Assembly (NCBI GenBank): GCA_016219925.1
Contig: JACRJU010000010.1
Coordinates: forward strand, 32,147-96,146
Origin: Candidatus Uhrbacteria bacterium
Lineage (GTDB): Bacteria > Patescibacteriota > Patescibacteriia > UBA9934 > GWF2-40-263
DNA: 64,000 nt
Reading direction: 5' to 3'
Position numbers and translations under genes: made by a program. This document shows positions 3,416-57,694 of the stretch, piece by piece. A model generated the notes under the pieces. It was not told where the DNA came from, did not search any database, and was given only the letters and a program-made list of their open reading frames with translations. The first letter of the stretch is position 1; each line of letters opens with the position of its first letter.

Positions 3416-4876
3416 ATGCAGGATTTTCGTGATACACTGCCGTTATCTATGCAAAAAGGCATTGTGGCGAGAAATTTCGCCGTGCAAGTATCTGGAAAAC
3501 TTCTCGCTGTTTTGGTTGGACTCATTTCAGTTGGTGTCCTGACACGCCACCTTGGAACAAATGGGTTTGGAGAATACACCACAGCGATCACGTTCCTTCA
3601 ATTGTTCGGGGTCGTGGTTGATTTTGGTCTGACCCTCACCATGGTCGTCATGATTTCAGAAGAGGGAGCGGATAATGAACGGATCATTGGAAACATTTTT
3701 GGTCTGCGCCTCTTGAGCGGGGCGCTGATTTTCAGTTTCGCTCCGCTTGCGGTGCTTTTGCTCCCGTGGTCCGCGCAGGTAAAGGACGCCGTACTGATCG
3801 GAAGCGTCGCGTATGTGCTTATGGGAGGAGCGACTCTGCTCGTCGGAGTCTTCCAGCGCTTTCAAGCGATGTGGCGGTCTGCACTGGCAGAAATGGTTAA
3901 CCGCATCGTACTGGTGATTGCCATCGTGATATTCGCGCAACTCAACTTAGGAGTGGTCTGGATGGTCGGAGCTTCGATGATTGCCAATGCGGTTTGGCTT
4001 TATGCCATGGTTCGACTGGCTCGCCCTTTCGTACGCATCCGTTTTTTGATGGATAGACATCTTTGGCAACAGGTGTGGTCTCGTTCTTGGCCGATTGCGG
4101 TCTCCATTTTTTTTAACCTGCTCTATCTCAAAGGGGACGTCCTCTTCCTTTCTTTGTATCGAAGCCAGACAGAAGTCGGTCTTTACGGAGTCACCTATCG
4201 CATCATCGACATGCTCACCGCCTTGCCGGTGATGTTCATGGGCATCCTTTTGCCTTTGGTTGTGAACACGTGGTCGGCTGGAAATCACGAAGAATTTCGC
4301 ACTCATGTGCGCCGTACATTTGATTTATTTATGATCGCCGCTATTCCGATTGTGATTGGAACACAGGTCGTGGCTGGACGGCTTATGCGACTGATCGCCG
4401 GGCCTGGATATGAAGCTTCTGGTGATATTTTGCGCTTGCTCATCTTCGCGGTCCTGGGTGTTTTTCTCGGCGCGCTATTCGGACATCTTGTGGTCGCCAT
4501 CAACAAACAAAAACCCATGGTGTGGGGATATGTGAGCGTCGCGGTGCTCACCGTAGCCGGCTACTTCCTTTTTATTCCCCCTTATGGCATGTGGGGTGCC
4601 GCTTGGATGACGCTTTTCTCTGAAGGTTTGATCGCAATCATCACGTTTGCGGTGGTCTATCACACGACCTCCGCCGTCCCACACTTGGGCGTGACACTCA
4701 AAGCCATTTTCGCTTCAGCCATCATGTATATCTTCCTGCAATTTCTCCCTACCCCATTTGTGCTTCTTGATCTTGCAGTGGCCGCCGCTCTTTACTTAAT
4801 CGTTATGCTTGTTATCAAAGGAATCAAGCTTGAAGAACTCCTCGCGCTAAGAGAAGCGCGCAATGCGATTGAATGA
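3416..4876 (+). CDS. Polysaccharide biosynthesis flippase (Wzx/MOP superfamily)
   Basis: 486 aa with about 12-14 hydrophobic helices. N-terminal '[21 protein letters not shown]' matches the Wzx pattern. Confidence 0.6.
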
Positions 4877-9467: not shown

Positions 9468-10094
9468 ATGCGACGAGCTTTTGCCTTTCTGCTCATCACC
9501 CTTTCCGTTGCGGCTTTGCCGTTTGCTGGATTGGCGTACTCGAGCAACATTTGCAAAGGCCCGACCTGTGATGTCTCCGAGGTGGGACGATTTATGGAAG
9601 GGATTACGCGCGAATGTGGAAACCTGGGCAACTGCTCGATCAATGATATTTTGATGGTGTTTGCCAATGCAGGAAACTTCGCCGTCGGCATTGTGGGAGC
9701 GCTTGTGCTTCTCATGTATGTGATCGGGGGAATGTACATGCTTTCTTCAGCAGGATCTTCGGACCGAGTCGCAAAAGGAAAAAAATATCTCACCATCTCA
9801 ACAACGGGGCTCCTCATTGTCGTCTTTGCTTATATTGGCATTAAGACGCTCGAATCGGTTTTGAGAACAGCCGGAGGCGAGGGTGACTTCGTCGAGGCTT
9901 GCACCGAGTCAACGATCGGCCAGCCTTGCGGACCGTCCAAACAATGTTTTCAAGCTGATGGTGCGTCAAGTGTTTCCTGTATCTCAAACTGTGAAGCTTT
10001 TACTCCAGGGGCGAGTTGCAAAAATGCTTCAAATCCTGCATGTATTTCAGGATTATGCCCTGGAGAAGCCGTGTGTTGTCCTCCAACGCCTTAA
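9468..10094 (+). CDS. TrbC/VirB2-like pilin family paralog 1 with Cys-rich C-terminal extension
   Basis: Signal peptide, conserved two-helix core 'LLMYVIGGMYMLSSAGSSDRVAKGKKYLTISTTGLLIVVFAYIGI', then about 70 aa with at least 12 Cys. Confidence 0.55.
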   Translation: MRRAFAFLLITLSVAALPFAGLAYSSNICKGPTCDVSEVGRFMEGITRECGNLGNCSINDILMVFANAGNFAVGIVGALVLLMYVIGGMYMLSSAGSSDRVAKGKKYLTISTTGLLIVVFAYIGIKTLESVLRTAGGEGDFVEACTESTIGQPCGPSKQCFQADGASSVSCISNCEAFTPGASCKNASNPACISGLCPGEAVCCPPTP

Positions 10095-10104
10095 TCCCAT
10101 TGCT

Positions 10105-10470
10105 ATGAAACTTTTTTTAAAACGATTAACTCTCCTTCTGTGGATTTGGTCCATGCCCCTTATGGCATTCGCCGCCGACCCGGCAGAAAAAAAATTGTTT
10201 AATCCTCTTGGAACTACGAGCATTCAAGCGGTGATCGCCCGGCTCATCAAAGCTTTGCTTGGACTTAGCGGAAGCATCGCCCTTCTGATGTTTGTGTGGG
10301 GAGGATTCTTGTGGCTTAGCTCTCGAGGGGAAACCAAACAAATCGAAAAAGGGAAAGAAACCATCAAATGGGCCACTTTCGGGCTCGTTATTATTTTTAC
10401 TGCCTACATTTTGGTTGGAGCAATCATTGGTGCGCTGATAAAAGGAACAGCTGTAGAGGCCCCAAGCTAG
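10105..10470 (+). CDS. TrbC/VirB2-like pilin family paralog 2
   Basis: Signal peptide then 'WGGFLWLSSRGETKQIEKGKETIKWATFGLVIIFTAYILVGAI'. Start set at the internal ATG that gives a signal peptide. Confidence 0.55.
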   Translation: MKLFLKRLTLLLWIWSMPLMAFAADPAEKKLFNPLGTTSIQAVIARLIKALLGLSGSIALLMFVWGGFLWLSSRGETKQIEKGKETIKWATFGLVIIFTAYILVGAIIGALIKGTAVEAPS

Positions 10471-10564
10471 CCGTGTGGATAAGCAGAGTTCTTTCTTCCC
10501 AAAAAAACGAGTAAAATACCTATAACCTTTCAATCATTTAACTTTTAAGGAGGCAACAATTTCT

Positions 10565-11023
10565 ATGACCATGGTACAGAAAAAATATCTCGGTTATGCG
10601 CTGGGAGCCGCCGTAGCCCTGCTCATTGCCGCGCCGATCGTGCTGGGAGGCGCACACAACGCTCTCGCTGCCCCCGGGCCACTTACAAAGGATGAGCTTT
10701 TCGGTGGCAAGGGTAAAACAGGCGATACATTTGCGGCAAATGCCGGACTTGGAAATGCGAACCTGATCGATACGATTTCTTCGATCATTCGCGTAGCTCT
10801 TGGTTTCCTCGGTGTGATTGCAGTGGTGATCATCCTGCTTGGTGGATTCAAGTGGATGACCTCGGGCGGAAACGATACCAAAGTTGGTGAGGCTAAAAAG
10901 CTCATCTTCGCAGGCATCATTGGATTGGTGATTGTGTTATCCGCATACGCGATCGCGAATTTCGTTATCGGCCAAATCGCGGGCGTCACCTCTAATCCTG
11001 TCCCTCCTGTCGGTGCTGGCTAA
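10565..11023 (+). CDS. TrbC/VirB2-like pilin family paralog 3
   Basis: 'LGGFKWMTSGGNDTKVGEAKKLIFAGIIGLVIVLSAYAIANFVI'. Confidence 0.55.
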   Translation: MTMVQKKYLGYALGAAVALLIAAPIVLGGAHNALAAPGPLTKDELFGGKGKTGDTFAANAGLGNANLIDTISSIIRVALGFLGVIAVVIILLGGFKWMTSGGNDTKVGEAKKLIFAGIIGLVIVLSAYAIANFVIGQIAGVTSNPVPPVGAG

Positions 11024-11105
11024 TGACTCATGCCCCCATCCCCCATCTTTTGGATGGGGGTTTGCGTAAGCTGATGAGAGGATTCGTCTGCTTACGCAAA
11101 TATTT

Positions 11106-11504
11106 ATGCAACGTTTTTTCTTGCGCATCGGCGCTCCAGCGATCATCTTTCTTTTGAGCGCCCCGTCTGCTTTGGCAGAGTCCGAAGCGGCAAAAGCGCT
11201 AAAGGGCGGACTCACAGATACCGCCAAGTTGGCTGGCTACCAATCAACATCTTTGCCTGTCATCATTGGAAATGTCATCAAGGCTTTGTTGGGTGTGGTC
11301 GGTATTATTTTCCTTTTGATTACCATCTATGCCGGTATTATGTATATGACGGCCGCGGGAGATACCGGAAAAGTCGACAAAGCAAAAAAAATGCTCACGC
11401 AATCGCTTATTGGCCTGGTGATCATCATAGGCGCCTATGCCTTTGCCAATTTCGTTGTGACTCAACTGGCTGTAGCAACAACGGCGGCACCAGTAAAAAA
11501 ATAG
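11106..11504 (+). CDS. TrbC/VirB2-like pilin family paralog 4
   Basis: 'YAGIMYMTAAGDTGKVDKAKKMLTQSLIGLVIIIGAYAFANFVV'. Confidence 0.55.
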   Translation: MQRFFLRIGAPAIIFLLSAPSALAESEAAKALKGGLTDTAKLAGYQSTSLPVIIGNVIKALLGVVGIIFLLITIYAGIMYMTAAGDTGKVDKAKKMLTQSLIGLVIIIGAYAFANFVVTQLAVATTAAPVKK

Positions 11505-11505
11505 T

Positions 11506-11901
11506 ATGAAAACCTTTTCAAGATGGCTGCTCATCGGAATATTTGTCTTGCTTCCAGTTTCTGCCTGGGCCGGCCTTCTTGATTCGCAACTAAGTACCGT
11601 AGGCAGTCAATTAGGAAAAGACGGTGGGGTCCCAACGAGTCTCCCCGTATTTATCGGTGGACTCATTAATGTCGTTTTATCGGTTCTTGGTCTCGTCTTT
11701 CTCGTTCTCATCGTGTATGCTGGATACATGTGGATGACGGCTTCAGGCGATTCAACCAAAGTTGATAAGGCCAAAAAACTTATTGGACAGGCTCTCATCG
11801 GCATGATCATTGTTATCGCTTCCTATGCGATCAGCGCGTTCGTGATCGACCGAATTTCAGGCGCAATTACGGTAGCGCCGGCGGCAGCCCCCACAAAATA
11901 A
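11506..11901 (+). CDS. TrbC/VirB2-like pilin family paralog 5
   Basis: 'YAGYMWMTASGDSTKVDKAKKLIGQALIGMIIVIASYAISAFVI'. Confidence 0.55.
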   Translation: MKTFSRWLLIGIFVLLPVSAWAGLLDSQLSTVGSQLGKDGGVPTSLPVFIGGLINVVLSVLGLVFLVLIVYAGYMWMTASGDSTKVDKAKKLIGQALIGMIIVIASYAISAFVIDRISGAITVAPAAAPTK

Positions 11902-11923
11902 CTTTCTTGAATCTTAATTATCT

Positions 11924-12316
11924 ATGAAAAATCTCTACTACACTTTCAGCGCCTGGATTTCCGTCTTGGGCCTGTCGCTTTTGCCGGCAAGCGCCATGGC
12001 TCAACTTAAACCATCAACAGATGCGGCGAGTGATCTTGGTAAGATCGGCAAGAAACTCGGCAACGAGACTCCAAACGATCTTCCAAACCTCATTGGCGGA
12101 CTCATCAACATGTTCCTTTCGATTCTCGGCATCGTCTTTGTGGTGCTGGTGATCTATGCCGGATACCTTTGGATGACGGCATCTGGCGACGCTACTAAAG
12201 TTGATAAAGCCAAAAAACTGCTTGGCCAGGCCATCATTGGAATCATCATTATTGTGGCGGCCTACGCGATCAGCACGTTCGTTATTAATAGGATCGTCGG
12301 AGCGGTTAAACCGTAG
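11924..12316 (+). CDS. TrbC/VirB2-like pilin family paralog 6
   Basis: 'YAGYLWMTASGDATKVDKAKKLLGQAIIGIIIIVAAYAISTFVI'. Confidence 0.55.
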   Translation: MKNLYYTFSAWISVLGLSLLPASAMAQLKPSTDAASDLGKIGKKLGNETPNDLPNLIGGLINMFLSILGIVFVVLVIYAGYLWMTASGDATKVDKAKKLLGQAIIGIIIIVAAYAISTFVINRIVGAVKP

Positions 12317-12414: not shown

Positions 12415-13344
12415 TCAGCGCTTCCACCCGTTAGTGGCGTGGGTGATGCGCCGATCAAGGCTCTCGACGCGGTCGAGTTCGACCCGGACCGCGTTGCCCC
12501 ACAGAGTCTGGGGCGGCAGGCCGGGGATCTCGACCAGACTGCCGGTCGGAGCCAGGTAGATGATCTCGATGCGGTCGCGTGGGCCGACCGCCGAGATATA
12601 GAGCTCGTCGTAGGCGGCCGGGGCGACCGCGCTGTACGGGGTGCGGTCCGGACGACCGTCCCCATCGAGATCGGCGTAGACCGTCTCGATCGAGCCATCC
12701 GCATTGCCGATCGGGATGGCAACCCCGTTGCGCTTCACGAGAACCCGCGAGAATTGGGGGTTTCGGTGGGTGTGCCAGCTGACCCCACTGGCAAGCCCGA
12801 AGACTTGCAAGTAGGGGCCAACCACCTCGAAGGTCGTGGCGGCGTATGCCCCTGGGGTCGGGATGACCCTGTAGGGCGCGCCACCGACCATCATCGTGGA
12901 CGGTGGTAGGCCTGCGGGCGGACGGTGGTAGGCCTGCGGCTCGGCTGGTTGAGCCTTGCCGTCCTTCGCCTTCCGATCGCGGAGCGTCCGAAGACGCGCC
13001 TTGATCTGCTGCCTGGCTGTGCCAGCGGCAGGCAGCTCCGGCTGCTTGGCGTCCGGCACTGCCTGCTGGGACGCGAGCTTGGCTTTGGTCGCCTCGAGCT
13101 CCTGACGGAGCCGATCGACTTCGGCCTTGAGCCCGCTCTCGCCGGCTTTGAGCCGCGCCTCCAGGATCTTCACGTTCTGATCCTGGATGCACAGCAGTTG
13201 CTTGAGGCGGGCACTCGAGTCGGTTCCGGCGTAGCGGGCCTCGCAGAATGCGACGGCCTGCTTCGCTTCCTTCGACTCTTCAGCGTGCAGGGTGGCGGGG
13301 ACGAACAGGAACAGGGCGGCCGCGATGGCCATTTCGAACTTCAT
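12415..13344 (-). CDS. Secreted coiled-coil protein of unknown function (high-GC island 1)
   Basis: Signal peptide 'MKFEMAIAAALFLFVPATLHA', a coiled-coil stretch, then a C-terminal domain of unknown family. Strong GC-rich third-position bias. Antisense ORFs in the same region are Arg/Pro/Gly-rich junk. Confidence 0.5.
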   Translation of the reverse strand: MKFEMAIAAALFLFVPATLHAEESKEAKQAVAFCEARYAGTDSSARLKQLLCIQDQNVKILEARLKAGESGLKAEVDRLRQELEATKAKLASQQAVPDAKQPELPAAGTARQQIKARLRTLRDRKAKDGKAQPAEPQAYHRPPAGLPPSTMMVGGAPYRVIPTPGAYAATTFEVVGPYLQVFGLASGVSWHTHRNPQFSRVLVKRNGVAIPIGNADGSIETVYADLDGDGRPDRTPYSAVAPAAYDELYISAVGPRDRIEIIYLAPTGSLVEIPGLPPQTLWGNAVRVELDRVESLDRRITHATNGWKR

Positions 13345-13419
13345 GGATTTCTCCTTGTGGTCGGACGTGCCGACCGTCTTCGTCTTTCGAGACGGCCGGC
13401 ACGGACCACCCGAGCCGAC

Positions 13420-14055
13420 CTACTTGCGGTGAACTCGGAGGAGCTCGTTGAGGTCGCGGCGGTTGCACGCCGCTTCCTCTGCGGGGTTGGCGGGCGGGCG
13501 ACCACCAGGGCACTGGCTCGTGCTCGCGGGCGCGAGCGCTTGCGGAGGTGGCGGGCCGTAGTAACCCGGGGCGACCGCTTCACCGAGCGGCGGGAGGTAG
13601 CCTCTGGCTCCTGCCCGCCATCCAGCCTCGATCATGGTCGTCTCCTGGCTGGCTCCCGGATAGTAGACAGCCTGACCGTACGGCCCGTAGCCGCCGGCGG
13701 CGTAGGGGTAGGCCCCCATGCCGTACGGCCCGTAAGCGCCGTAGTAGCCCGTGTACCCGGAGGTCACCTGACCTCCGCGGGTGCTCACCTGCGTGGGCAC
13801 CCCCTTGTCAACCGACGCGCGGGCCGTTGCGGCCGCGCGCTCGGCCGCATCGCCGTCATGACGCGTACGCTCGAGCTGGTCGGCGGCGGCAAGGAGCGCT
13901 GCCGCTCCCCCGGTGGTGGCCAGATCCTGGTGGACCTGGACCGAACCGATGACCCGACCGCTTGCGTCGGTGAGGTCGCGCTTGAGCGCGACGCTCGCGC
14001 ATCCCGTGAGGGCGGCGAGCACGATGGCGAGGATGGTCTTCATCTGCTTCTCCAT
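13420..14055 (-). CDS. Lipoprotein with Gly/Tyr-rich repeat region (high-GC island 1)
   Basis: Lipobox 'LAALTGC'. Low-complexity 'YTGYYGAYGPYGMGAYPYAAGGYGPYG'. Same strand and same composition as the downstream gene. Confidence 0.5.
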   Translation of the reverse strand: MEKQMKTILAIVLAALTGCASVALKRDLTDASGRVIGSVQVHQDLATTGGAAALLAAADQLERTRHDGDAAERAAATARASVDKGVPTQVSTRGGQVTSGYTGYYGAYGPYGMGAYPYAAGGYGPYGQAVYYPGASQETTMIEAGWRAGARGYLPPLGEAVAPGYYGPPPPQALAPASTSQCPGGRPPANPAEEAACNRRDLNELLRVHRK

Positions 14056-15599: not shown

Positions 15600-17600
15600 C
15601 TACTTGCAGCCGAAGGCCTGACGACCTTCATAGCTAAGCGCCGCGCAGTCGACTCCGTTGGTGTGCGTGTGCGGCTTGGAAGCCGAACGCGCGCTGGACG
15701 AAGTCGGGGGCGTCGTGGCGAAGGGGTCCATCGTGTGGTGACCCACGAACCACGGAACGCTCACCGCGACCATGAGTGCGCAGAGGAAGACCGCGAGGTG
15801 GCCCACCAGGGGGTTACTCCCTTGAGTCACGTTCAGGATCGATCCTGACTGCACCCGTGTCTGTGCGAGCCGGCGCACGAGCCAGTACCCGGGCAGGTAC
15901 ACGAGCGTGAAGAGGACCGCGCTCGCAACCCACTGATGAGTCCCGAGGAAGCTGAGGCTTGCACCCCAGGCCGCGACAGTCGCGCCCCAGACGGCTTGCG
16001 GCCATCCGTGACGGATCATCCAGTCTGCGGCGATGATCCCGATCGTCACCAGCCACCCGTACTGCGCGCCCCGAAGAGCAAGCAGTTGGGCCTTGGCCGG
16101 CGCGCCCGCGACCTTGAAGCCCATCCCGATGCACACGCCGACGAAGGCGAGGCCCAGGATGACGACGCGTGCGCTGAGCGACACACCGACCTCCGGGATG
16201 AGGCCCAGAGCGATCAGGTACGCCGGCATCAGCATGAAGGTGAACCTCCAGCCGAATTCGGCGAGCCAATCGGCGGGCCACCCGAGCACACTGACAACCA
16301 GGGGGTGGAGCAGACGCTGCCAGATCCGCAGCGTAAAAAACATGATGATCAGCACCGTCGCGCAGATGATCGCGCGCAGGCTGTGGTACATGCTCGGGGC
16401 ACTGAAGAGGCTCGAGAGCATCCACCAGAACGCCGTGAGGAACATCACCACGGTCGCCAGGTTGAACACCACGATCCCGACCGCCGAGCCGTAGAGCAGG
16501 GCTTTGAGGGTCCCGCTCATGGCGCCGCGGTTGTGCCAGGCGCTCGAAGCGCCGCGCAGGGCCTTGTGCCAGAGCGTGAGCTCCGCACCCAAGGCCGTGT
16601 CGAACGCGGCGATGATGTCGTCGAGATCTTCGGGGTTGAACCGGTCCTCGGGGGTCGCACGCGGATTGTAGTACTCCGCGAGCGTCCTGAGAAACGGCAC
16701 GCCCTTCTTGTCGACGACGTCCTTGACGATGTCCTCGCGCAGGGCGTACTGCAGGGCCGTTCCCTGCCGCACGCTGCGGCTGATGAGCAGGAAGAAGCGC
16801 CGAACCTCGGGTCCGACCGCCTCCCACCACTCGGCGGGCTTCCTCAGAAGACCCTCGAGGATCTTGAGCTCTACGGCGCTGACGCGCTGGGTATCCCCCA
16901 TCTGCGCGATCGCTTCCGCGAGCTTCAGGACCTCGTGCGGGAAGGACTCGGCCGGCACACGCTCGGTGCGAGGCTGTTGGCCCTTGCCACCGCCGACCTG
17001 CTTGGTCGTGGCTTTGTGGGTGTCATCCCAGACGCTCTTGTAGAGCGCCCAGGTCGGATCCAGGATGACGGGCACCTGGTCGGCACCCACCCGAATCTTG
17101 CCGTCAGAGTCCCGGGCCGGAACGAAGATCTTACCCGGAACGAGCCGGCTGACAACAACCCAGTCAAGAGTCTGGTTGGCATCAGCGTCTGCGACGCCGG
17201 GGTCGGAGCGGGCCGCGTCGACCTCGCGATCGATCTGGCTCGCGGCATCCGCGTACCCGGTGAACACGCCCAACAGGGCGTGTGGGCCAACCTCCTTGAG
17301 GAGGAGCTTGGCCTCGCGAACGACCGGACGGGTGTCGCCCGGAAGAATCCGCTCGACGAAGTCGCTCTTCTTGAGCAAGGCCGCGACGGCCGAGCCCGCG
17401 AGTGGGAGGGTGAACCCGGGCATGGTGCGCGCCAGGGCCATGACCGGCCCGGCCGCTCCGAAGATGCCCTTGAGCGACCGCTTGGCGATCGCCTTGCCGG
17501 ACTCTCCAGCACCCGCACCCTCGGTGAGCTCGCGCTCGAGGTGCTGGTGCACGGCCTGTTCGGCGGCCTCTTCGGCCATCAATCGAAGAAACTCGTTCAT
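15600..17600 (-). CDS. Large polytopic membrane protein of unknown function (high-GC island 2)
   Basis: 666 aa. A soluble N-terminal domain of about 350 aa is followed by about 7-9 hydrophobic helices. GGAG RBS upstream. Very GC-rich. Confidence 0.5.
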   Translation of the reverse strand: MNEFLRLMAEEAAEQAVHQHLERELTEGAGAGESGKAIAKRSLKGIFGAAGPVMALARTMPGFTLPLAGSAVAALLKKSDFVERILPGDTRPVVREAKLLLKEVGPHALLGVFTGYADAASQIDREVDAARSDPGVADADANQTLDWVVVSRLVPGKIFVPARDSDGKIRVGADQVPVILDPTWALYKSVWDDTHKATTKQVGGGKGQQPRTERVPAESFPHEVLKLAEAIAQMGDTQRVSAVELKILEGLLRKPAEWWEAVGPEVRRFFLLISRSVRQGTALQYALREDIVKDVVDKKGVPFLRTLAEYYNPRATPEDRFNPEDLDDIIAAFDTALGAELTLWHKALRGASSAWHNRGAMSGTLKALLYGSAVGIVVFNLATVVMFLTAFWWMLSSLFSAPSMYHSLRAIICATVLIIMFFTLRIWQRLLHPLVVSVLGWPADWLAEFGWRFTFMLMPAYLIALGLIPEVGVSLSARVVILGLAFVGVCIGMGFKVAGAPAKAQLLALRGAQYGWLVTIGIIAADWMIRHGWPQAVWGATVAAWGASLSFLGTHQWVASAVLFTLVYLPGYWLVRRLAQTRVQSGSILNVTQGSNPLVGHLAVFLCALMVAVSVPWFVGHHTMDPFATTPPTSSSARSASKPHTHTNGVDCAALSYEGRQAFGCK

Positions 17601-17776
17601 CTCTATCTCCTGTGCGGCTCTTGGCCGCGCAATGGGTTTGGAACACGTGAAAAGGGCGAAAAAAACCTTTTCTCCAATGCGCGTTGCCGCACACAGAAGG
17701 GACTTTTATATCATATTTCGGCCGTTTTGTCAACGGCCAATGACTCATTTTTCTTAAATTCCTTCATAAGTCACCC

Positions 17777-17851
17777 AGTGGGTAATAAGAGATTTGTGAC
17801 CTTGTCTTCGGGCCGACGGACTCATCGCCGTCGTTCCCTCCGACATGGTCA
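17777..17851. repeat. 75-bp palindromic element with perfect 15-bp terminal inverted repeats
   Basis: aagagatttgtgacc (17777-17791) and ggtcacaaatctctt (17837-17851) are exact reverse complements. The spacer holds an internal cgacgg/ccgtcg stem. Confidence 0.6.
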
Positions 17852-17979
17852 CAAATCTCTTTAGGGCTGTGAAGAATAAACGAGTCACAGCCAGTGGGGA
17901 GGCGGCCATGGGGCCCCCACTGACCTTCTCTTTGTGGGCTTCAAGCGAACCCAAGCGGGTGGTCGAAAAGACAAAAGGG

Positions 17980-19152
17980 TTATTTGAATTCAGACGCACG
18001 ACGCTTCTCCTGAATCATTTTGGTTATAATCGGCCGATCGGTGTTGCGCCCGACAAGCACGGCGCCAATAAGCTGGCCTGCCCGAGAAAAAAGTTGTGTG
18101 ATGCCTCCCTGCTCAACCGAACCCACCAACCGAACTTCATCGGCATGCGCGCGCGACACATCACCCACAAAAATAATTTCCAAACCAAGAGCGTTTGTGG
18201 CGTAAGAAGAAACCAAAGAGAACACAGTCTTCTCCCCAGCCATATTCTTTGCCACCACACGTCCCTGCATCTGCGCATTCATCCAGTTACCCACGCGCAC
18301 ATGACGGCCAACATTGATATCGTAAAACTCGGCCACATCGCCAGCCGCAAAAATGTTTGGCTCTGATGTCTGTAAAAATTCATCACACACGATGCCCGCC
18401 TCAACCTTCACTCCTGCTTCGCGCAACCATCCATCATCCGATTCGATCCCAATTCCCACTCCAAGAATGGTGCAAGGATGCTCACCGAGCGAACTGATAA
18501 ATCCGGTGAGTTCGCGCTCCCCCATGGTATCGACAAAAAGTCCGCCCGGATGGAGCTCAACACCCTTCTTGATTAAATGTTGATTGATAAGACGCCCCAC
18601 TTCGGGCTCGAGCCCTTTAGACCAAAAATGGTTTCCTCGAAAAATAACGGTTGTCGGGATCCCAAAATGGGCAAACAAGTTGATGTACTCACAGGCGATA
18701 AACCCACCGCCGTAAACGCCGCCACGGCAAGATGATCCCTGCTCGGCAAGTAGTTGATTCAAATGATCCGCGTCATCAAGCGTACGTAAATAAGAGACAC
18801 CGCGCACATCCAATCCGAGAGTACGCAGTTCGCCTCCGGTTGCGATGAGTAGTTTGTCATAGGGGAGTTCGCGGCCATCTGAGAGTTCGACGAAGGTATT
18901 TTTCGGGTCCAGTTTTACAACCGAAATTCCGCGCACCCACTCAATCTTTTGTTCTTCATACCACGACTCTTTCTTCAAAAAGACCCGCTCGCGCGGAATT
19001 TTCCCTTTCAAATAATGCGGCAACAGCACCCGCGAATAGAGGGCGTGCTGTTCCTCACTCACAAGCGTAATCTCATCGCTGGAATCGAGCTTGCGCAATT
19101 CTTCCACGGCCGTTGTTCCGGCAATGCCTCCGCCGATGATGAGATAGCGCAT
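17980..19152 (-). CDS. FAD-dependent pyridine nucleotide-disulfide oxidoreductase (ferredoxin/rubredoxin reductase-like)
   Basis: 'MRYLIIGGGIAGTTAVEELRK' is a Rossmann GxGxxG fold with two dinucleotide-binding regions. Start trimmed to the internal ATG at 19152. Confidence 0.75.
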   Translation of the reverse strand: MRYLIIGGGIAGTTAVEELRKLDSSDEITLVSEEQHALYSRVLLPHYLKGKIPRERVFLKKESWYEEQKIEWVRGISVVKLDPKNTFVELSDGRELPYDKLLIATGGELRTLGLDVRGVSYLRTLDDADHLNQLLAEQGSSCRGGVYGGGFIACEYINLFAHFGIPTTVIFRGNHFWSKGLEPEVGRLINQHLIKKGVELHPGGLFVDTMGERELTGFISSLGEHPCTILGVGIGIESDDGWLREAGVKVEAGIVCDEFLQTSEPNIFAAGDVAEFYDINVGRHVRVGNWMNAQMQGRVVAKNMAGEKTVFSLVSSYATNALGLEIIFVGDVSRAHADEVRLVGSVEQGGITQLFSRAGQLIGAVLVGRNTDRPIITKMIQEKRRASEFK

Positions 19153-19177
19153 AGACAAAAAAATCCAAAAAGACCTC

Positions 19178-19456
19178 TTAGAGCTCGGGGAAAAGTTGTT
19201 TCCCGGCTTCATCAAAAATAAAAATTGCGAGTGTCGGGCAAGACTGGGCGGCAAGCAAAATATTCTCCTGTTGCTCTTGGGTTACCTCAAGCCATCGTTC
19301 ATAGGTGGGACCACCTGGCGCTTGCCCATGGTCATACACCTCGGCTTTATTTTCACTGTTGAGTTGAAATGTTTCGGGCGCGATGGTAACGCACGAAGCC
19401 GCCCCGATACACAAGTCCTCATCGACTTTAATTCGAATCTTTGGCATAGACCTCAT
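19178..19456 (-). CDS. Ferredoxin (single [4Fe-4S]-type)
   Basis: 'PKIRIKVDEDLCIGAASCVTIAPETF'. Start ATG overlaps the nifU stop in ATGA fashion. Confidence 0.6.
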   Translation of the reverse strand: MRSMPKIRIKVDEDLCIGAASCVTIAPETFQLNSENKAEVYDHGQAPGGPTYERWLEVTQEQQENILLAAQSCPTLAIFIFDEAGKQLFPEL

Positions 19457-54189: not shown

Positions 54190-54245
54190 TCTCTTGGTAG
54201 GGTACAGATACGACCTGGCATAAGGCTCGGTCAAGGGAGGCCATC

Positions 54246-55226
54246 ATGGCACACGTGACCCATCGCGATCTGCTCTTTCCCATCGTCGTGAAGTTCTGGG
54301 GGGTCCGCGGATCCTTCCCGACCAGCGACGTCCGGATCGGCGGGCACACGACATGCCTGACGCTCCAGTTCCCCGACCAACTCATCATCTTCGACACGGG
54401 TTCGGGGATGATCGACCTTGGCAACCATCTGCTCGAGCCGGCGCTCGTGCCTGGAACGACCCTCAAAGACATCGAGGTGTTCACCAAGGTCTGGCTCGGC
54501 CAGACTGGCAACAAGCCCGAGGATCTCGGGCGCGCTCTGCAGGAGCGGTTCCAGGGCAAGAACGGCGGGGTCAACGCGACCGTGATCCACAGCCACGTCC
54601 ACAAGGATCACCTCGACGGGCTCACGGCGTTCAAGCCCGTGTTCCGTCCGGACACGGAGCTCACCTTCATCGGCTCGCGCCACAATGATCTGACGATCGA
54701 GCAGGTCATGGAGCGCTTCGTGTTCACCCCGCCGGTGTTTCCGGTGCCCTGGAAGGTCCTGGGGTCGAGGCGCACCATGCGCGAGATCGCTCCGTCGGGC
54801 GACACCTTCACGATCCCCTGCGCGGTCGGCGACGACATCCGTGTGCGGATGCTGCCGATGAACCACCCCAACCAAGCCTACGGGTACCGGTTCGAGTGGG
54901 GCGGTCGTGTGATCGCGGTCACGCTCGACCACGAGCACGGTCACGACTTCGACCGCAACGTCGTCGAGCTCGCGGACAACGCCGACCTGTGGATCACCGA
55001 GGCGCAGTACACCGATGCGCAGTACGCGCGGTGCAAGGGCTTCGGCCACATCAGCGAGACCGCGGCCGCCGCGCACGCCAAGGCGGCCAAGCCCCGGCTC
55101 GTCTACACGACCCACCACGATCCGGACGCCGGCTTCGACGATGTCCAGCAGATCGCGCGCACCATCCAGGAGTTCTCGGGCGTCGAAGCTCGGTACGCCT
55201 GGCAGGGTAGCGAGGTCCACGTCTGA
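54246..55226 (+). CDS. MBL-fold metallo-hydrolase (high-GC island 4)
   Basis: 'VIHSHVHKDHLDG' HxHxDH motif, plus downstream His/Asp ligands. AGGGAGG RBS. Confidence 0.7.
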   Translation: MAHVTHRDLLFPIVVKFWGVRGSFPTSDVRIGGHTTCLTLQFPDQLIIFDTGSGMIDLGNHLLEPALVPGTTLKDIEVFTKVWLGQTGNKPEDLGRALQERFQGKNGGVNATVIHSHVHKDHLDGLTAFKPVFRPDTELTFIGSRHNDLTIEQVMERFVFTPPVFPVPWKVLGSRRTMREIAPSGDTFTIPCAVGDDIRVRMLPMNHPNQAYGYRFEWGGRVIAVTLDHEHGHDFDRNVVELADNADLWITEAQYTDAQYARCKGFGHISETAAAAHAKAAKPRLVYTTHHDPDAGFDDVQQIARTIQEFSGVEARYAWQGSEVHV

Positions 55227-57173: not shown

Positions 57174-57249
57174 GGCGGCCATGGTGAAACGGTTATCACA
57201 GCAGGTTGTGGTCCTGTCGTTACGGGTTCGATTCCCGTTGGCCGCCCCA
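57174..57249 (+). tRNA. tRNA-His (anticodon GTG) with encoded G-1 and CCA
   Basis: G-1 + gcggcca...tggccgc-c-cca. Anticodon stem gcagg/cctgt with loop ttGTGgt. T-arm acggg-ttcgatt-cccgt. Confidence 0.75.
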
Positions 57250-57303
57250 CACAAAACCCCCGGCTTTTGCCTGGGGTTTTGTGTGAGAGATAAGAATCGA
57301 ACC

Positions 57304-57322
57304 CGTAACGACGATCAACAAC
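57304..57322. repeat. Inverted 19-nt copy of the tRNA-His variable/T-arm region
   Basis: gaatcgaacccgtaacgac is the exact reverse complement of tRNA positions 57216-57234. Confidence 0.6.
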
Positions 57323-57423
57323 ACGGGTACGATGCTTGAAGTGAGCGAGCGGAGAGGCCGAGCGGAGCTCGGACTATCCCGAGCGAGCGAGAGCAATATG
57401 GGCGCCAGCCCATATTCCCGTTG

Positions 57424-57447
57424 GCCGCCCCACAAAATAGACCCCAG
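57424..57447. repeat. Direct repeat of the tRNA-His 3' end (att-like), embedded in a long hairpin
   Basis: attcccgttggccgccccaca-aaa matches 57231-57251. Forms cccgttggcc...ggccaacggg (57427-57489) enclosing acaaaatagacccca/tggggtctattttgt. Confidence 0.6.
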
Positions 57448-57694
57448 CATGCTGGGGTCTATTTTGTTTGGCCAACGGGAGGTGAAGGGGGCATGTCTCT
57501 TTTCTCTTCATTCTATCCACACTTGACACCATTTTTTCCTTCAGGCATACTTCTGCGGGTCTGCTTGTGAGGTGGCTATTTCAGCCAAAATTGCAGGCAT
57601 CCCGGCTGGCCGGATAGCCAGAGCCAGGCCAAACCGGATCGGTTTCCGGAAAGGCCAAACACCAGAAGCCCCAATGGGGCAACAGAGGCTACAG

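What the first reader, a model, noticed from the sequence alone, without database searches (positions are those of the whole stretch)
17601..17979. 380-bp noncoding region packed with perfect inverted repeats and a duplicated 13-mer
The region lies between the island-2 gene start and the oxidoreductase gene. It contains: (i) a nested leader hairpin at 17611-17690; (ii) a ggccgtt-ttgtc-aacggcc stem-loop at 17720-17740; (iii) a 75-bp element with exact 15-bp terminal inverted repeats aagagatttgtgacc/ggtcacaaatctctt (17777-17851) and an inner cgacgg/ccgtcg stem; (iv) cagtgggg...ccccactg, an 8-bp stem around a GC palindrome (17882-17912); (v) near-direct repeats agtcacccagtggg (17760) and agtcacagccagtgggg (17873) flanking element (iii). 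This looks like a miniature inverted-repeat element or a cis-regulatory RNA, not spacer DNA. It abuts a foreign island, so it may mark the insertion boundary.
Basis: seen in the sequence. Interest (0 to 1): 0.5.

Follow-up and report, generated by a model that had tools for sequence, protein, structure and literature searches.

The report
Conserved promoter-leader RNA plus orphan hairpins
The gene-proximal third of this 379-bp spacer in a Candidatus Uhrbacteria genome is a promoter plus a roughly 100-nt folded mRNA leader found upstream of every relative of the downstream membrane-protein gene examined; the rest is a lineage-specific cluster of hairpins of unknown role, not a demonstrable mobile element or island boundary.

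Summary
All five described repeats exist. Features iii-v lie 9-10 bp to the right of the stated coordinates. The 379-bp spacer folds far better than shuffles (z -6.0), and the 75-nt hairpin has z -8.5.

All three genes are on the minus strand, so the region is the upstream region of a 666-aa membrane-protein gene with no Pfam match.

The proximal third (17601-17733) is conserved in all 13 syntenic loci recovered. It holds TTGACA, a 17-nt spacer, an extended -10, and a leader of about 100 nt. The leader contains invariant GUGCGG-NAA-CGCGC and CCGCACA-Shine-Dalgarno blocks, a GNRA-capped hairpin, a central hairpin with compensatory changes and a hairpin next to the Shine-Dalgarno sequence. It matches no Rfam family. 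It is most likely a new cis-acting leader RNA with alternative pairings that affect translation or stability. Covariation is thin and the trigger is unknown.

The "stem-loop" at 17720-17738 simply wraps the -35 box.

The distal part (17741-17979) is not shared with relatives, which carry ordinary terminators there. The 75-bp inverted repeat is single-copy in the window and absent from the JGI metagenome and viral collections. Its genome-wide copy number could not be tested.

The "foreign island" gene is syntenic in all relatives, so this is not an insertion boundary.

The parts
17601..17699 (-). Structured 5' leader, about 100 nt, of the 666-aa gene (ATG at 17600-17598). The 5' end is inferred from the promoter and has not been mapped.
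   Evidence: Conserved in 13/13 loci. Covariance model R1 hits once per locus at 45-96 bits and nowhere else. Fold z -3.0. No Rfam match on this strand.
17606..17611 (-). Shine-Dalgarno sequence AGGAGA, 5 nt upstream of the ATG and directly abutting the invariant CCGCACA block.
   Evidence: Sequence. Aligned in all loci. Predicted unpaired probability 0.29 here and <=0.13 in 8/13 loci.
17611..17628 (-). Hairpin H2: GCGGC (17628-17624), loop CAAGA, GCCGC (17618-17614), followed by ACA. GCCGCACA (17618-17611) is also the 3' strand of the long-range helix P1.
   Evidence: Stem kept in 11/13 loci, with loops of 3-6 nt and differing sequence. A sixth pair is G-C in L028 and U-A in L029. CCGCACA is invariant.
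17638..17677 (-). Central hairpin: UUGGA (17677-17673) / UCCAA (17642-17638) enclosing GAAAAGG (17672-17666) / CCUUUUC (17655-17649).
   Evidence: Per-sequence folds show the same hairpin with compensatory variants: UUGGG/CCCAA in L007, GAACGG/CCGUUC in L028, GGGGAACAG/UUGUUCCUU in L005/L010/L031. It is absent in L006 and L030.
17677..17694 (-). Hairpin H1: GUGUGCG, GCAA loop, CGCGCAU. UGUGCGGC (17693-17686) is also the 5' strand of the long-range helix P1 with 17618-17611.
   Evidence: GUGCG/CGCGC is invariant in 12/13 loci; L004 has a 1-nt-shorter variant. The loop varies within GNRA: GCAA, GUAA or GAAA in 11/13, 5-nt loops in 2. RNAalifold predicts H1 and H2. Single-sequence MFE prefers P1 in 8/10 loci.
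17695..17699 (-). Pyrimidine tract CUUCU, a candidate anti-Shine-Dalgarno sequence. It lies at or near the predicted transcript 5' end.
   Evidence: A CUUCU/UCUUC tract is present in 12 of 13 loci, L030 being the exception. It pairs with the Shine-Dalgarno region in most predicted folds. Whether it is transcribed in full is unknown.
17705..17733 (-). Sigma-70-type promoter: -35 TTGACA (17733-17728), 17-nt spacer, TG (17713-17712), -10 TATAAA (17710-17705).
   Evidence: TTGACA with an exact 17-nt spacer is found in all 13 loci, and TGn before the -10 in all 13. The distance from -10 to GTGCGG is 12-16 nt. The consensus scanner missed it because it requires T at position 6 of the -10.
17720..17738 (.).
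   Evidence: Sequence. Kept only in the closest loci L001 and L008. L030 has a different palindrome, CGCG...CGCG, around its -35. Absent elsewhere.
17741..17756 (.). TGACTCATTTTTCTTA, the promoter-upstream motif and left arm of an outer inverted repeat with 17872-17887.
   Evidence: pair I9. AAAAATGAGTCAT is shared with L001, and AAGAACGAGTCA with L008. It closes the structure of about 147 nt in the fold.
17769..17782 (.). Direct repeat copy 1, AGTCACCCAGTGGG (feature v). It is itself a small near-palindrome.
   Evidence: family D4.
17787..17861 (.). 75-bp perfect-armed inverted repeat, a long hairpin (feature iii). Arms 17787-17806/17842-17861, inner stem CGACGG/CCGTCG.
   Evidence: pair I1. 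RNA dG -47.5, z -8.5. DNA z -7.9. Single-copy in the window. Not found in relatives or public collections.
17865..17892 (.). Hairpin GGCTGTGA / TCACAGCC. It overlaps the right arm of the outer inverted repeat (17872-17887, AAGAATAAACGAGTCA).
   Evidence: pairs I12, I9.
17883..17898 (.). Direct repeat copy 2, AGTCACAGCCAGTGGG (feature v).
17892..17922 (-). GC-rich hairpin CAGTGGGG...CCCCACTG (feature iv), 58 nt downstream of the oxidoreductase stop codon. It sits where relatives have terminators but lacks a U-tract.
   Evidence: pair I11; folds. The terminator scan found none. Relatives have hairpin-plus-T-run terminators in the corresponding region.
17980..19254 (-). Upstream gene: pyridine-nucleotide-disulphide oxidoreductase, the last gene of a nifS-nifU-ferredoxin cluster. 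The likely true start is internal, at the MRYLIIGGG methionine.
   Evidence: Pfam PF07992, E 3e-48. Synteny.
15600..17600 (-). Downstream gene served by the promoter and leader: a 666-aa polytopic membrane protein with no Pfam or NCBIfam family. GC3 is 0.85.

Best explanation
The spacer has two unrelated parts.

(A) 17601-17733, minus strand, is the dedicated expression signal of the 666-aa membrane-protein gene. It consists of a near-consensus sigma-70 promoter (TTGACA, 17 nt, TGnTATAAA) followed by a structured 5' leader of about 100 nt. Four short blocks in the leader can pair in two mutually exclusive ways:
- a = GUGCGG, b = CGCGC, c = GCGG, d = CCGCAC.
- Local form: a:b (hairpin H1 with a GNRA loop) plus c:d (hairpin H2 just before the Shine-Dalgarno sequence).
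- Long-range form: a:d (helix P1, UGUGCGG/CCGCACA) plus b:c, enclosing a central hairpin.

The long-range form brings a 5' CUUCU tract next to the Shine-Dalgarno sequence. I infer that the leader works in cis at the RNA level. It would set translation initiation, and possibly mRNA stability, by the balance between these folds. The long-range fold would be less translatable. The trigger could be a ligand, a protein, temperature or co-transcriptional kinetics, and is unknown.

Shown: conservation of the promoter, the blocks and the hairpins; compensatory changes in the central hairpin and in the H2 extension; absence from Rfam. Inferred: transcription start, RNA-level action, switching, and the effect on translation.

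(B) 17741-17979 is a lineage-specific stretch lying downstream of the oxidoreductase gene. Where the relatives that have a distal spacer carry ordinary intrinsic terminators, this genome has nested hairpins. They are a GC-rich hairpin without a U-tract and a structure of about 147 nt whose core is the 75-nt hairpin with perfect arms. Most likely these arose by local duplication and inversion. If they are functional, they would act as a transcript-end, processing or insulating structure between the two transcription units. This part is the least certain.
For: Orientation and gene calls.

The family gene keeps the same neighbourhood in all recovered loci.

Promoter: TTGACA, an exact 17-nt spacer and TGn-extended -10 occur in 13/13 loci, with -10 to GTGCGG at 12-16 nt.

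Leader conservation:
- 24 invariant and 12 near-invariant columns across 10 loci.
- The distal spacer is unalignable.
- Family proteins are only 40-47% identical in direct pairwise comparison and 36-45% in the search table.
- Covariance model R1 finds exactly one strong copy (45-96 bits) per locus, always at this position. It finds none elsewhere in the 64-kb window or in the other sequence held for those family loci, about 150 kb in total including the window.

Structure:
- H1 loops vary within GNRA.
- H2 loops vary in length and sequence, with compensatory sixth pairs.
- The central hairpin has three compensatory variants.
- 79.8% of cells are paired against 33-55% when partners are slid.
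- MFE equals the long-range fold in 8/10 loci, and the alternative lies within 0.2-6 kcal/mol.
- Predicted unpaired probability of the Shine-Dalgarno sequence is <=0.13 in 8/13 loci, in most of them below about 95% of upstream-shuffled controls.
- Variable spacing inside both palindromes (H1 loop 4-5 nt, H2 loop 3-6 nt) and an invariant U.G wobble fit RNA better than a DNA operator.
- Indels are not multiples of three and there is no conserved upstream ORF.

No Rfam family was found in the window or in relatives.

Distal part:
- Of the relatives with a distal spacer, L001, L006, L008, L009 and L029 show a hairpin followed by a T-run there. L005, L010 and L004 have no distal spacer.
- Window folds.
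- Single copy, and no homologue anywhere searched.
Against: - Helix P1 and the H1 and H2 cores never vary, so they give no covariation evidence.
- Overall covariation is weak. The score is 0.075 against 0.047, with 10-14 of 500 shuffles as high. The number of pairs changed on both sides is no better than in shuffles.
- The 13 sequences come from one narrow clade and are not independent.
- In the window's own leader, predicted Shine-Dalgarno occlusion is only partial (0.29) and not different from shuffled controls. The same holds for L006, L029 and L030.
- The transcription start is unmapped. With the usual spacing, the CUUCU tract would sit at the very 5' end and may be partly untranscribed in the window, where the -10 to GTGCGG distance is only 12 nt.
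- The fixed distance of the first palindrome from the promoter would also suit a DNA operator.
- For part B there is no comparative support at all, and no U-tract terminator.
Confidence: 0.62

Rival explanations
1. The 75-bp element, or the larger unit of about 147 bp, is a miniature inverted-repeat transposable element or a REP-like repeat. It would have inserted between the upstream terminator and the promoter.
For: Perfect 15-bp terminal inverted repeats, small size and intergenic location. Imperfect direct repeats lie on both sides. The relatives compared lack it. One relative, L029, has a different long hairpin in the same spacer that begins with the same 9-13 nt, AAAGAGATTG.
Against: - It is single-copy in 64 kb.
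- The direct repeats do not abut the inverted-repeat ends; they lie 4 and 21 bp away.
- No copies were found in JGI metagenomes, viral contigs, phages or plasmids.
- Genome-collection hits share only the 11-14 nt that were searched for.
- The similarity to L029 is only a 9-mer by local alignment, with roughly 0.06 such matches expected by chance.
- The left arm of the outer repeat is ancestral promoter-upstream sequence shared with L001 and L008. That argues against the 147-bp unit being an insertion.
Confidence: 0.12
2. The conserved blocks act as DNA, not RNA. TGTGCGG-N4-CGCGCA at about +7 to +22 and GCGG-N-CCGCACA would be operators for a dimeric repressor. The -35 palindrome would be a further operator.
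For: The first palindrome sits at a nearly fixed distance from the -10. The core sequences are invariant rather than covarying. A palindrome overlaps the -35 in win, L001, L008 and L030.
Against: - Half-site spacing varies: 4-5 nt in the first palindrome and 3-6 nt in the second. Spacing between the two palindromes varies by tens of bp.
- There is an invariant T/G asymmetry that is a wobble pair in RNA.
- The central hairpin shows compensatory changes that have no meaning for a DNA site.
- The -35 palindrome is not conserved across the family.
Confidence: 0.12
3. The leader is a constitutive 5' stabiliser or translation-tuning structure with no switch and no ligand. It would resemble the 5' stem-loops that protect mRNAs from 5'-end-dependent decay.
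For: H1 lies within a few nt of the predicted transcript 5' end in all loci. No ligand-type Rfam family matches. Shine-Dalgarno occlusion is inconsistent across loci.
Against: Invariance extends well beyond what a stabilising hairpin needs. The perfect a:d complementarity (7 nt, 13/13 loci) and the two near-isoenergetic folds are unexplained by a simple stabiliser.
Confidence: 0.2
4. The spacer marks the junction of a recently acquired foreign (high-GC) island, and the repeats are integration scars.
For: A sharp GC step from 0.66 to 0.51 occurs at the start codon. GC3 is 0.85 against about 0.5 in the neighbours.
Against: The gene, its promoter and leader, and the two other high-GC genes occupy the same positions in all relatives. 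They are GC-enriched there as well. No integrase, tRNA or att-like repeat lies at this junction.
Confidence: 0.03

Closest known systems
Shine-Dalgarno-sequestering 5' leaders with alternative pairings, such as the expression platforms of translational riboswitches and leaders like ROSE and fourU thermometers
   Same: It is a cis-acting 5' UTR of about 100 nt. A pyrimidine tract can pair with the Shine-Dalgarno sequence. Mutually exclusive helices are built from four complementary blocks. The conserved primary sequence is interrupted by variable loops.
   Different: No match to any Rfam family, including ROSE and fourU, at E<=10 on the correct strand. No identified aptamer or ligand. Shine-Dalgarno occlusion is not consistently predicted. 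The leader is confined to one small gene family in Uhrbacteria-like CPR bacteria.
Orphan candidate cis-regulatory RNA motifs found by comparative genomics of intergenic regions (my recollection of Breaker/Weinberg-style motif surveys; no paper was read here)
   Same: It was defined in the same way: a conserved intergenic block upstream of one gene family, hairpins with variable loops, and some compensatory changes.
   Different: It is not in Rfam 15. Only 13 examples are known, from one clade. The statistical support for covariation is weak.
MITEs and REP/BIME elements
   Same: The 75-bp element is short, has perfect terminal inverted repeats, is intergenic and forms a stable hairpin.
   Different: No multiple copies, no abutting target-site duplication, and no related element found anywhere searched.
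Rho-independent terminators
   Same: Hairpin (iv) is GC-rich and lies just downstream of the upstream gene. Relatives have canonical terminators in the same spacer.
   Different: No U-tract follows any hairpin in the window's spacer, and the scan found none.

Membership tests
Any Rfam 15 family | Covariance-model score at or above the family's gathering threshold | tested here: not met
   The best hit in 17000-18600 is BsrC at 20.3 bits against a gathering score of 38, E 1.1, on the wrong (+) strand. Only tRNAs were found in the related loci.
MITE | Terminal inverted repeats on a short non-coding element | tested here: met
   15-bp exact arms (20 bp at 95%) on a 75-bp unit.
MITE | Target-site duplication directly abutting both ends | tested here: not met
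   The flanks are GGGTAAT| and |TAGGGCT. The nearest direct repeats lie 4 and 21 bp from the ends.
MITE | Multiple dispersed copies in the genome | tested here: inconclusive
   One copy in the 64-kb window. The rest of the MAG is not in the searchable collections: the genome-contig scan gave no self-hit.
MITE | Related copies or a parent IS with the same ends in other sequences | tested here: not met
   No hits in JGI metagenomes, viral contigs, phages or plasmids. The 17 genome hits share only the searched arms.
Sigma-70-type promoter | -35 and -10 hexamers with a 16-18 nt spacer, positioned upstream of the gene and conserved | tested here: met
   TTGACA, 17 nt, TGnTATAAA. TTGACA, the 17-nt spacer and the extended TG are present in 13/13 loci. 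Activity was not tested. The scanner missed it because of its T-at-position-6 rule.
Intrinsic terminator | GC-rich stem-loop immediately followed by a U-tract | tested here: not met
   No terminator-like site in 17400-18200 on either strand. Hairpin (iv) is followed by GCUGUGACUCG.
Riboswitch | Conserved aptamer fold supported by covariation | tested here: inconclusive
   Compensatory changes occur in the central hairpin and the H2 extension. The overall covariation score is exceeded by 10-14 of 500 shuffles, and the core helices are invariant.
Riboswitch | Specific ligand binding that changes the fold | not testable with these tools
   This needs in-line probing or similar. The function of the regulated gene is unknown, so no candidate ligand can be proposed.
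Riboswitch / RNA thermometer | Expression platform that occludes the Shine-Dalgarno sequence in one state | tested here: inconclusive
   Predicted unpaired probability is <=0.13 in 8/13 loci but 0.29-0.49 in the window, L006, L029 and L030. In those four it is not different from shuffles.
Genomic-island boundary | Presence/absence polymorphism among relatives, with integration signatures at the junction | tested here: not met
   The gene is present at the same position in all 13 loci. No tRNA or integrase lies at the junction.

The most novel reading that the evidence does not exclude
The leader of about 100 nt is a genuine two-state RNA switch of a class not yet described, responding to a ligand or a protein. 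It would be specific to Uhrbacteria-like CPR bacteria. It would control a fast-evolving, high-GC3 envelope protein encoded beside a VirB2-like pilin array, and so would be a regulatory handle on the cell-surface or episymbiosis machinery of organisms in which almost no regulation is known.
Probability: 0.2. Interest if true: 0.65.

Novelty: new member of a known kind. Interest (0 to 1): 0.42.

Why it matters
I found no Patescibacteria (CPR) cis-regulatory RNA in the two literature searches run here. One perspective paper (PMC11665869) mentions riboswitches only as prospective engineering tools.

This leader is about 100 nt long and is kept with its promoter across loci whose proteins have diverged to roughly 40% identity. 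It is a concrete, testable candidate for native post-transcriptional control in this group.

The regulated gene sits next to a VirB2-like pilin array, a feature that PMC12102498 reports as widespread in Patescibacteria. That makes the gene a plausible part of the cell-surface apparatus.

The negative results also matter. A sharp GC step together with dense inverted repeats looked like an island junction with a mobile element. Synteny shows it is neither.

Tried and rejected
- Rfam at E<=10 over 17000-18600, and at gathering threshold over eight related or hit loci: nothing relevant.
- Consensus promoter and terminator scan: found nothing. The promoter was recognised only by comparison with relatives.
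- Copy number of the 75-bp element: one copy in the window. The genome-contig scan gave 17 unrelated hairpins (Bradyrhizobium, Aeromicrobium and others) and no self-hit, so the MAG is not in that collection. The metagenome scan gave 0 and the viral scan 0. blastn against phages and plasmids gave 0. blastn-short against all fetched loci gave only the 10-14-nt seeds.
- Homology between the window's hairpin and the long hairpin in L029: only a shared 9-mer or 13-nt pattern. I treat this as a weak lead.
- Upstream ORF or N-terminal extension as the cause of conservation: rejected. Indels are not in threes, there is no conserved start codon, and the protein N-termini align at the annotated ATG.
- Island boundary: rejected by synteny.
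- Function of the 666-aa protein: no Pfam or NCBIfam family. The AlphaFold model is poor (pLDDT 63, pTM 0.29). Foldseek against the PDB gave nothing at E<=0.001.
- Widening the leader alignment: the word-indexed protein search returned only 9-12 usable proteins. Full HMMER sees 90 clusters, but their DNA could not be fetched.
- The covariance-model realignment did not improve the register of the central hairpin, so I used per-sequence folds instead.
Full report
**Where this is.** The 666-aa ORF at 15600-17600 (minus strand) is 100% identical to a hypothetical protein of a Candidatus Uhrbacteria MAG, locus tag HZA85_01670, on a 145.5-kb contig. The flagged spacer, 17601-17979, lies between two minus-strand genes. 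Upstream is a Pyr_redox_2 oxidoreductase (17980-19254, Pfam E 3e-48). Downstream is the 666-aa gene, whose ATG is at 17600. Read in the direction of transcription, the spacer is therefore the tail of the nifS-nifU-ferredoxin-oxidoreductase cluster followed by the upstream region of the 666-aa gene.

**Check of the observation.** All five repeats exist. Features (iii), (iv) and (v) are 9-10 bp to the right of the coordinates given.
- The 75-bp inverted repeat is at 17787-17861. Its arms are 20 nt at 95%, with the outer 15 nt exact.
- The 8-bp stem is at 17892-17899/17915-17922.
- The direct repeats are at 17769-17782 and 17883-17898.

The density of inverted repeats is well beyond chance.
- The whole spacer folds with z -6.0.
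- The 75-nt hairpin folds with z -8.5 as RNA and -7.9 as DNA.
- The leader folds with z -3.0.

An additional outer inverted repeat, 17741-17756/17872-17887, closes a structure of about 147 nt around the 75-nt hairpin.

**The "island" is not an insertion.** The word-indexed protein search found only 9 relatives at 36-45% identity. A full HMMER search found 90 clusters. The contigs I could fetch gave 12 loci distinct from the window. Wherever enough flanking sequence is present, the order is the same: nifS, nifU, ferredoxin, oxidoreductase, [family gene], purD in some, a gene of about 200 aa, a gene of about 300 aa, then convergent T4SS_pilin genes.

The window has the same layout. The 211-aa and 309-aa ORFs of "island 1" lie at 13420-14055 and 12415-13344. 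An array of pilin-like genes lies at about 9.5-12.3 kb. Such VirB2-like arrays are described for Patescibacteria in PMC12102498.

The family gene has a higher GC content than its neighbours in every locus. The GC step at the start codon is therefore a long-standing property of the gene, not an integration junction.

**The proximal third is conserved.** When the spacers are laid side by side, the distal parts cannot be aligned. The roughly 135 nt next to the start codon align in every locus.

All 13 loci carry:
- TTGACA;
- exactly 17 nt of spacer;
- a TGn-extended -10 (TATAAA in the window, 17710-17705);
- 12-16 nt from the -10 to an invariant GTGCGG.

It is kept only in L001 and L008. L030 has a different palindrome there.

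**Anatomy of the leader.** Downstream of the promoter the leader contains two invariant blocks, GUGCGG-NAA-CGCGC-NUU and CCGCACA. The second block runs straight into the Shine-Dalgarno sequence (AGGAGA, 17611-17606). There are 24 invariant and 12 near-invariant columns in ten sequences.

A covariance model built from these sequences finds one copy per locus at 45-96 bits. It finds nothing else in the 64-kb window or in the other sequence held for those loci.

A scan of JGI metagenomes with a leader pattern returned one further locus, with the same synteny.

Nothing in Rfam 15 matches. There is no conserved upstream ORF, and the indels are not in multiples of three.

**Structure.** Per-sequence analysis gives three elements.
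- H1 is (GU)GUGCG-loop-CGCGC(AU). The loop is GCAA, GUAA or GAAA in 11 of 13 loci.
- The central hairpin is UUGGA..GAAAAGG-loop-CCUUUUC..UCCAA. Compensatory variants are UUGGG/CCCAA (L007), GAACGG/CCGUUC (L028) and GGGGAACAG/UUGUUCCUU (L005, L010, L031). It is missing in L006 and L030.
- H2 is GCGG(C)-loop-(G)CCGC. Its loops are 3-6 nt and differ in sequence. A sixth pair is G-C in L028 and U-A in L029.

RNAalifold predicts H1 and H2.

The 5' strand of H1 is also perfectly complementary to the 3' strand of H2 plus ACA (UGUGCGG/CCGCACA). This complementarity is invariant in 13 of 13 loci. CGCGC can likewise pair with the GCGCG just upstream of H2.

Single-sequence MFE folds choose this long-range form in 8 of 10 loci. 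The local-hairpin form lies within 0.2-6 kcal/mol of it.

Each block therefore serves two helices. That would explain why the cores never vary.

**Limits of the structural evidence.** On the alignment, 79.8% of cells pair, against 33-55% when the partners are slid. Formal covariation is weak. The score is 0.075 against 0.047, with 10-14 of 500 shuffles reaching it. The count of doubly changed pairs is no better than in shuffles.

**Proposed mechanism and its limits.** A 5' CUUCU/UCUUC tract pairs with the Shine-Dalgarno region in most predicted folds. The long-range helix places the tract next to the Shine-Dalgarno sequence. I therefore favour a cis-acting leader whose fold sets translation initiation, and perhaps mRNA stability.

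Several weaknesses remain.
- Predicted unpaired probability of the Shine-Dalgarno sequence is <=0.13 in 8 of 13 loci. It is 0.29 in the window and 0.35-0.49 in three other loci, where it does not differ from shuffled controls.
- The transcription start is not mapped. With normal spacing, the CUUCU tract lies at the very 5' end.
- A DNA-operator reading is not excluded. The fixed distance from the promoter favours it. The variable half-site spacing, the invariant U.G wobble and the compensatory central hairpin argue against it.
- The regulated protein gives no hint of a ligand. It has no Pfam or NCBIfam family, a poor AlphaFold model and no fold match.

**The distal part.** Where the window has its nested hairpins, the relatives that have a distal spacer show a hairpin followed by a T-run (L001, L006, L008, L009, L029). 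The window has no hairpin followed by a U-tract.

The 75-bp element:
- is single-copy in the window;
- has no abutting target duplication;
- was not found in JGI metagenomes, viral contigs, phages or plasmids.

The genome-collection scan returned 17 hairpins from unrelated bacteria. They share only the searched arms. There was no self-hit, so the MAG itself cannot be searched and genome-wide copy number remains open.

The left arm of the outer repeat (AAAAATGAGTCA) is ancestral promoter-upstream sequence, shared with L001 and L008. This suggests that local inverted and direct duplication built the structure.

One relative, L029, has a 615-bp spacer with its own perfect 19-nt inverted repeat. 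It also has a hairpin starting AAAGAGATTG, like the window's arm. The shared stretch is only 9-13 nt.

I regard this part as lineage-specific and of unknown role. It may act as a transcript-end, processing or insulating structure.

**Verdict.** The leader is a good candidate cis-regulatory RNA that is not in Rfam. The MITE idea is unsupported, though not fully testable. The island-boundary idea is wrong.

I file the leader as a new member of a known kind: a structured 5' UTR regulator. Interest is moderate.

Noticed in passing
window 12415-14055 and 15600-17600; L001, L029: Three syntenic envelope genes have GC3 of 0.82-0.85, against 0.48-0.59 in adjacent housekeeping genes. They are a 666-aa polytopic membrane protein, a 211-aa Gly/Tyr/Pro-rich lipoprotein and a 309-aa secreted protein. 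The same excess is seen in the orthologous genes of L001 and L029. These three proteins are also only 40-53% identical between loci where the oxidoreductase is 65-70% and PurD 80-86% identical. A persistent, gene-specific GC3 excess combined with fast evolution is unexplained. Possible causes include biased gene conversion, recombination or repeated replacement.
   Followed up: partly
window 9468-12316 (+): An array of five or six small pilin-like genes. They share a conserved motif, roughly ...G(Y/F)xWMT(A/S)(S/G)G(D/N)xxKVxxAKK..., and one scores PF18895 T4SS_pilin at E 3e-05. The array converges on the three high-GC genes. The same arrangement occurs in L004 and L007-L009. VirB2-like arrays in Patescibacteria are described in PMC12102498.
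   Followed up: partly
window 57175-57472: tRNA-His (57175-57249) with a terminator-like hairpin is followed 183 bp later by a second copy of the tRNA 3' end (57411-57430) and a near-perfect 46-bp palindrome (57427-57472). Beyond that lies another high-GC stretch, 57.5-59 kb at GC 0.64, whose ORFs have no Pfam family. It looks like an att-type scar at a tRNA gene.
   Followed up: partly
L013-L017, L023, L025 (Aeromicrobium panaciterrae, one contig); L020: At least seven copies of a 57-nt inverted-repeat element occur in one Aeromicrobium contig, with the form CGCGATTTGTGACCTT...GCGTCA...GACGCC...AAGGTCACAAATCGCG. One more copy occurs in an Actinomycetota MAG. A distinct element of about 80 nt with the same 11-nt arms occurs at one locus in several Bradyrhizobium species. 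The representative loci scanned (L012, L013) gave no Rfam match. These elements are unrelated to the window beyond the searched arms.
   Followed up: partly
L029 4386-5000: The orthologous spacer in this relative is 615 bp. It also holds long perfect inverted repeats (19-nt arms at 100%, 4400-4418/4480-4498) and a branched hairpin at about 4653-4756, ahead of a canonical terminator and the conserved promoter and leader. This spacer may be a recurrent site for hairpin accumulation.
   Followed up: partly
window 54231-55226: A further GC-rich kilobase (0.60) overlaps a Lactamase_B_2-domain ORF on the plus strand.
   Followed up: no
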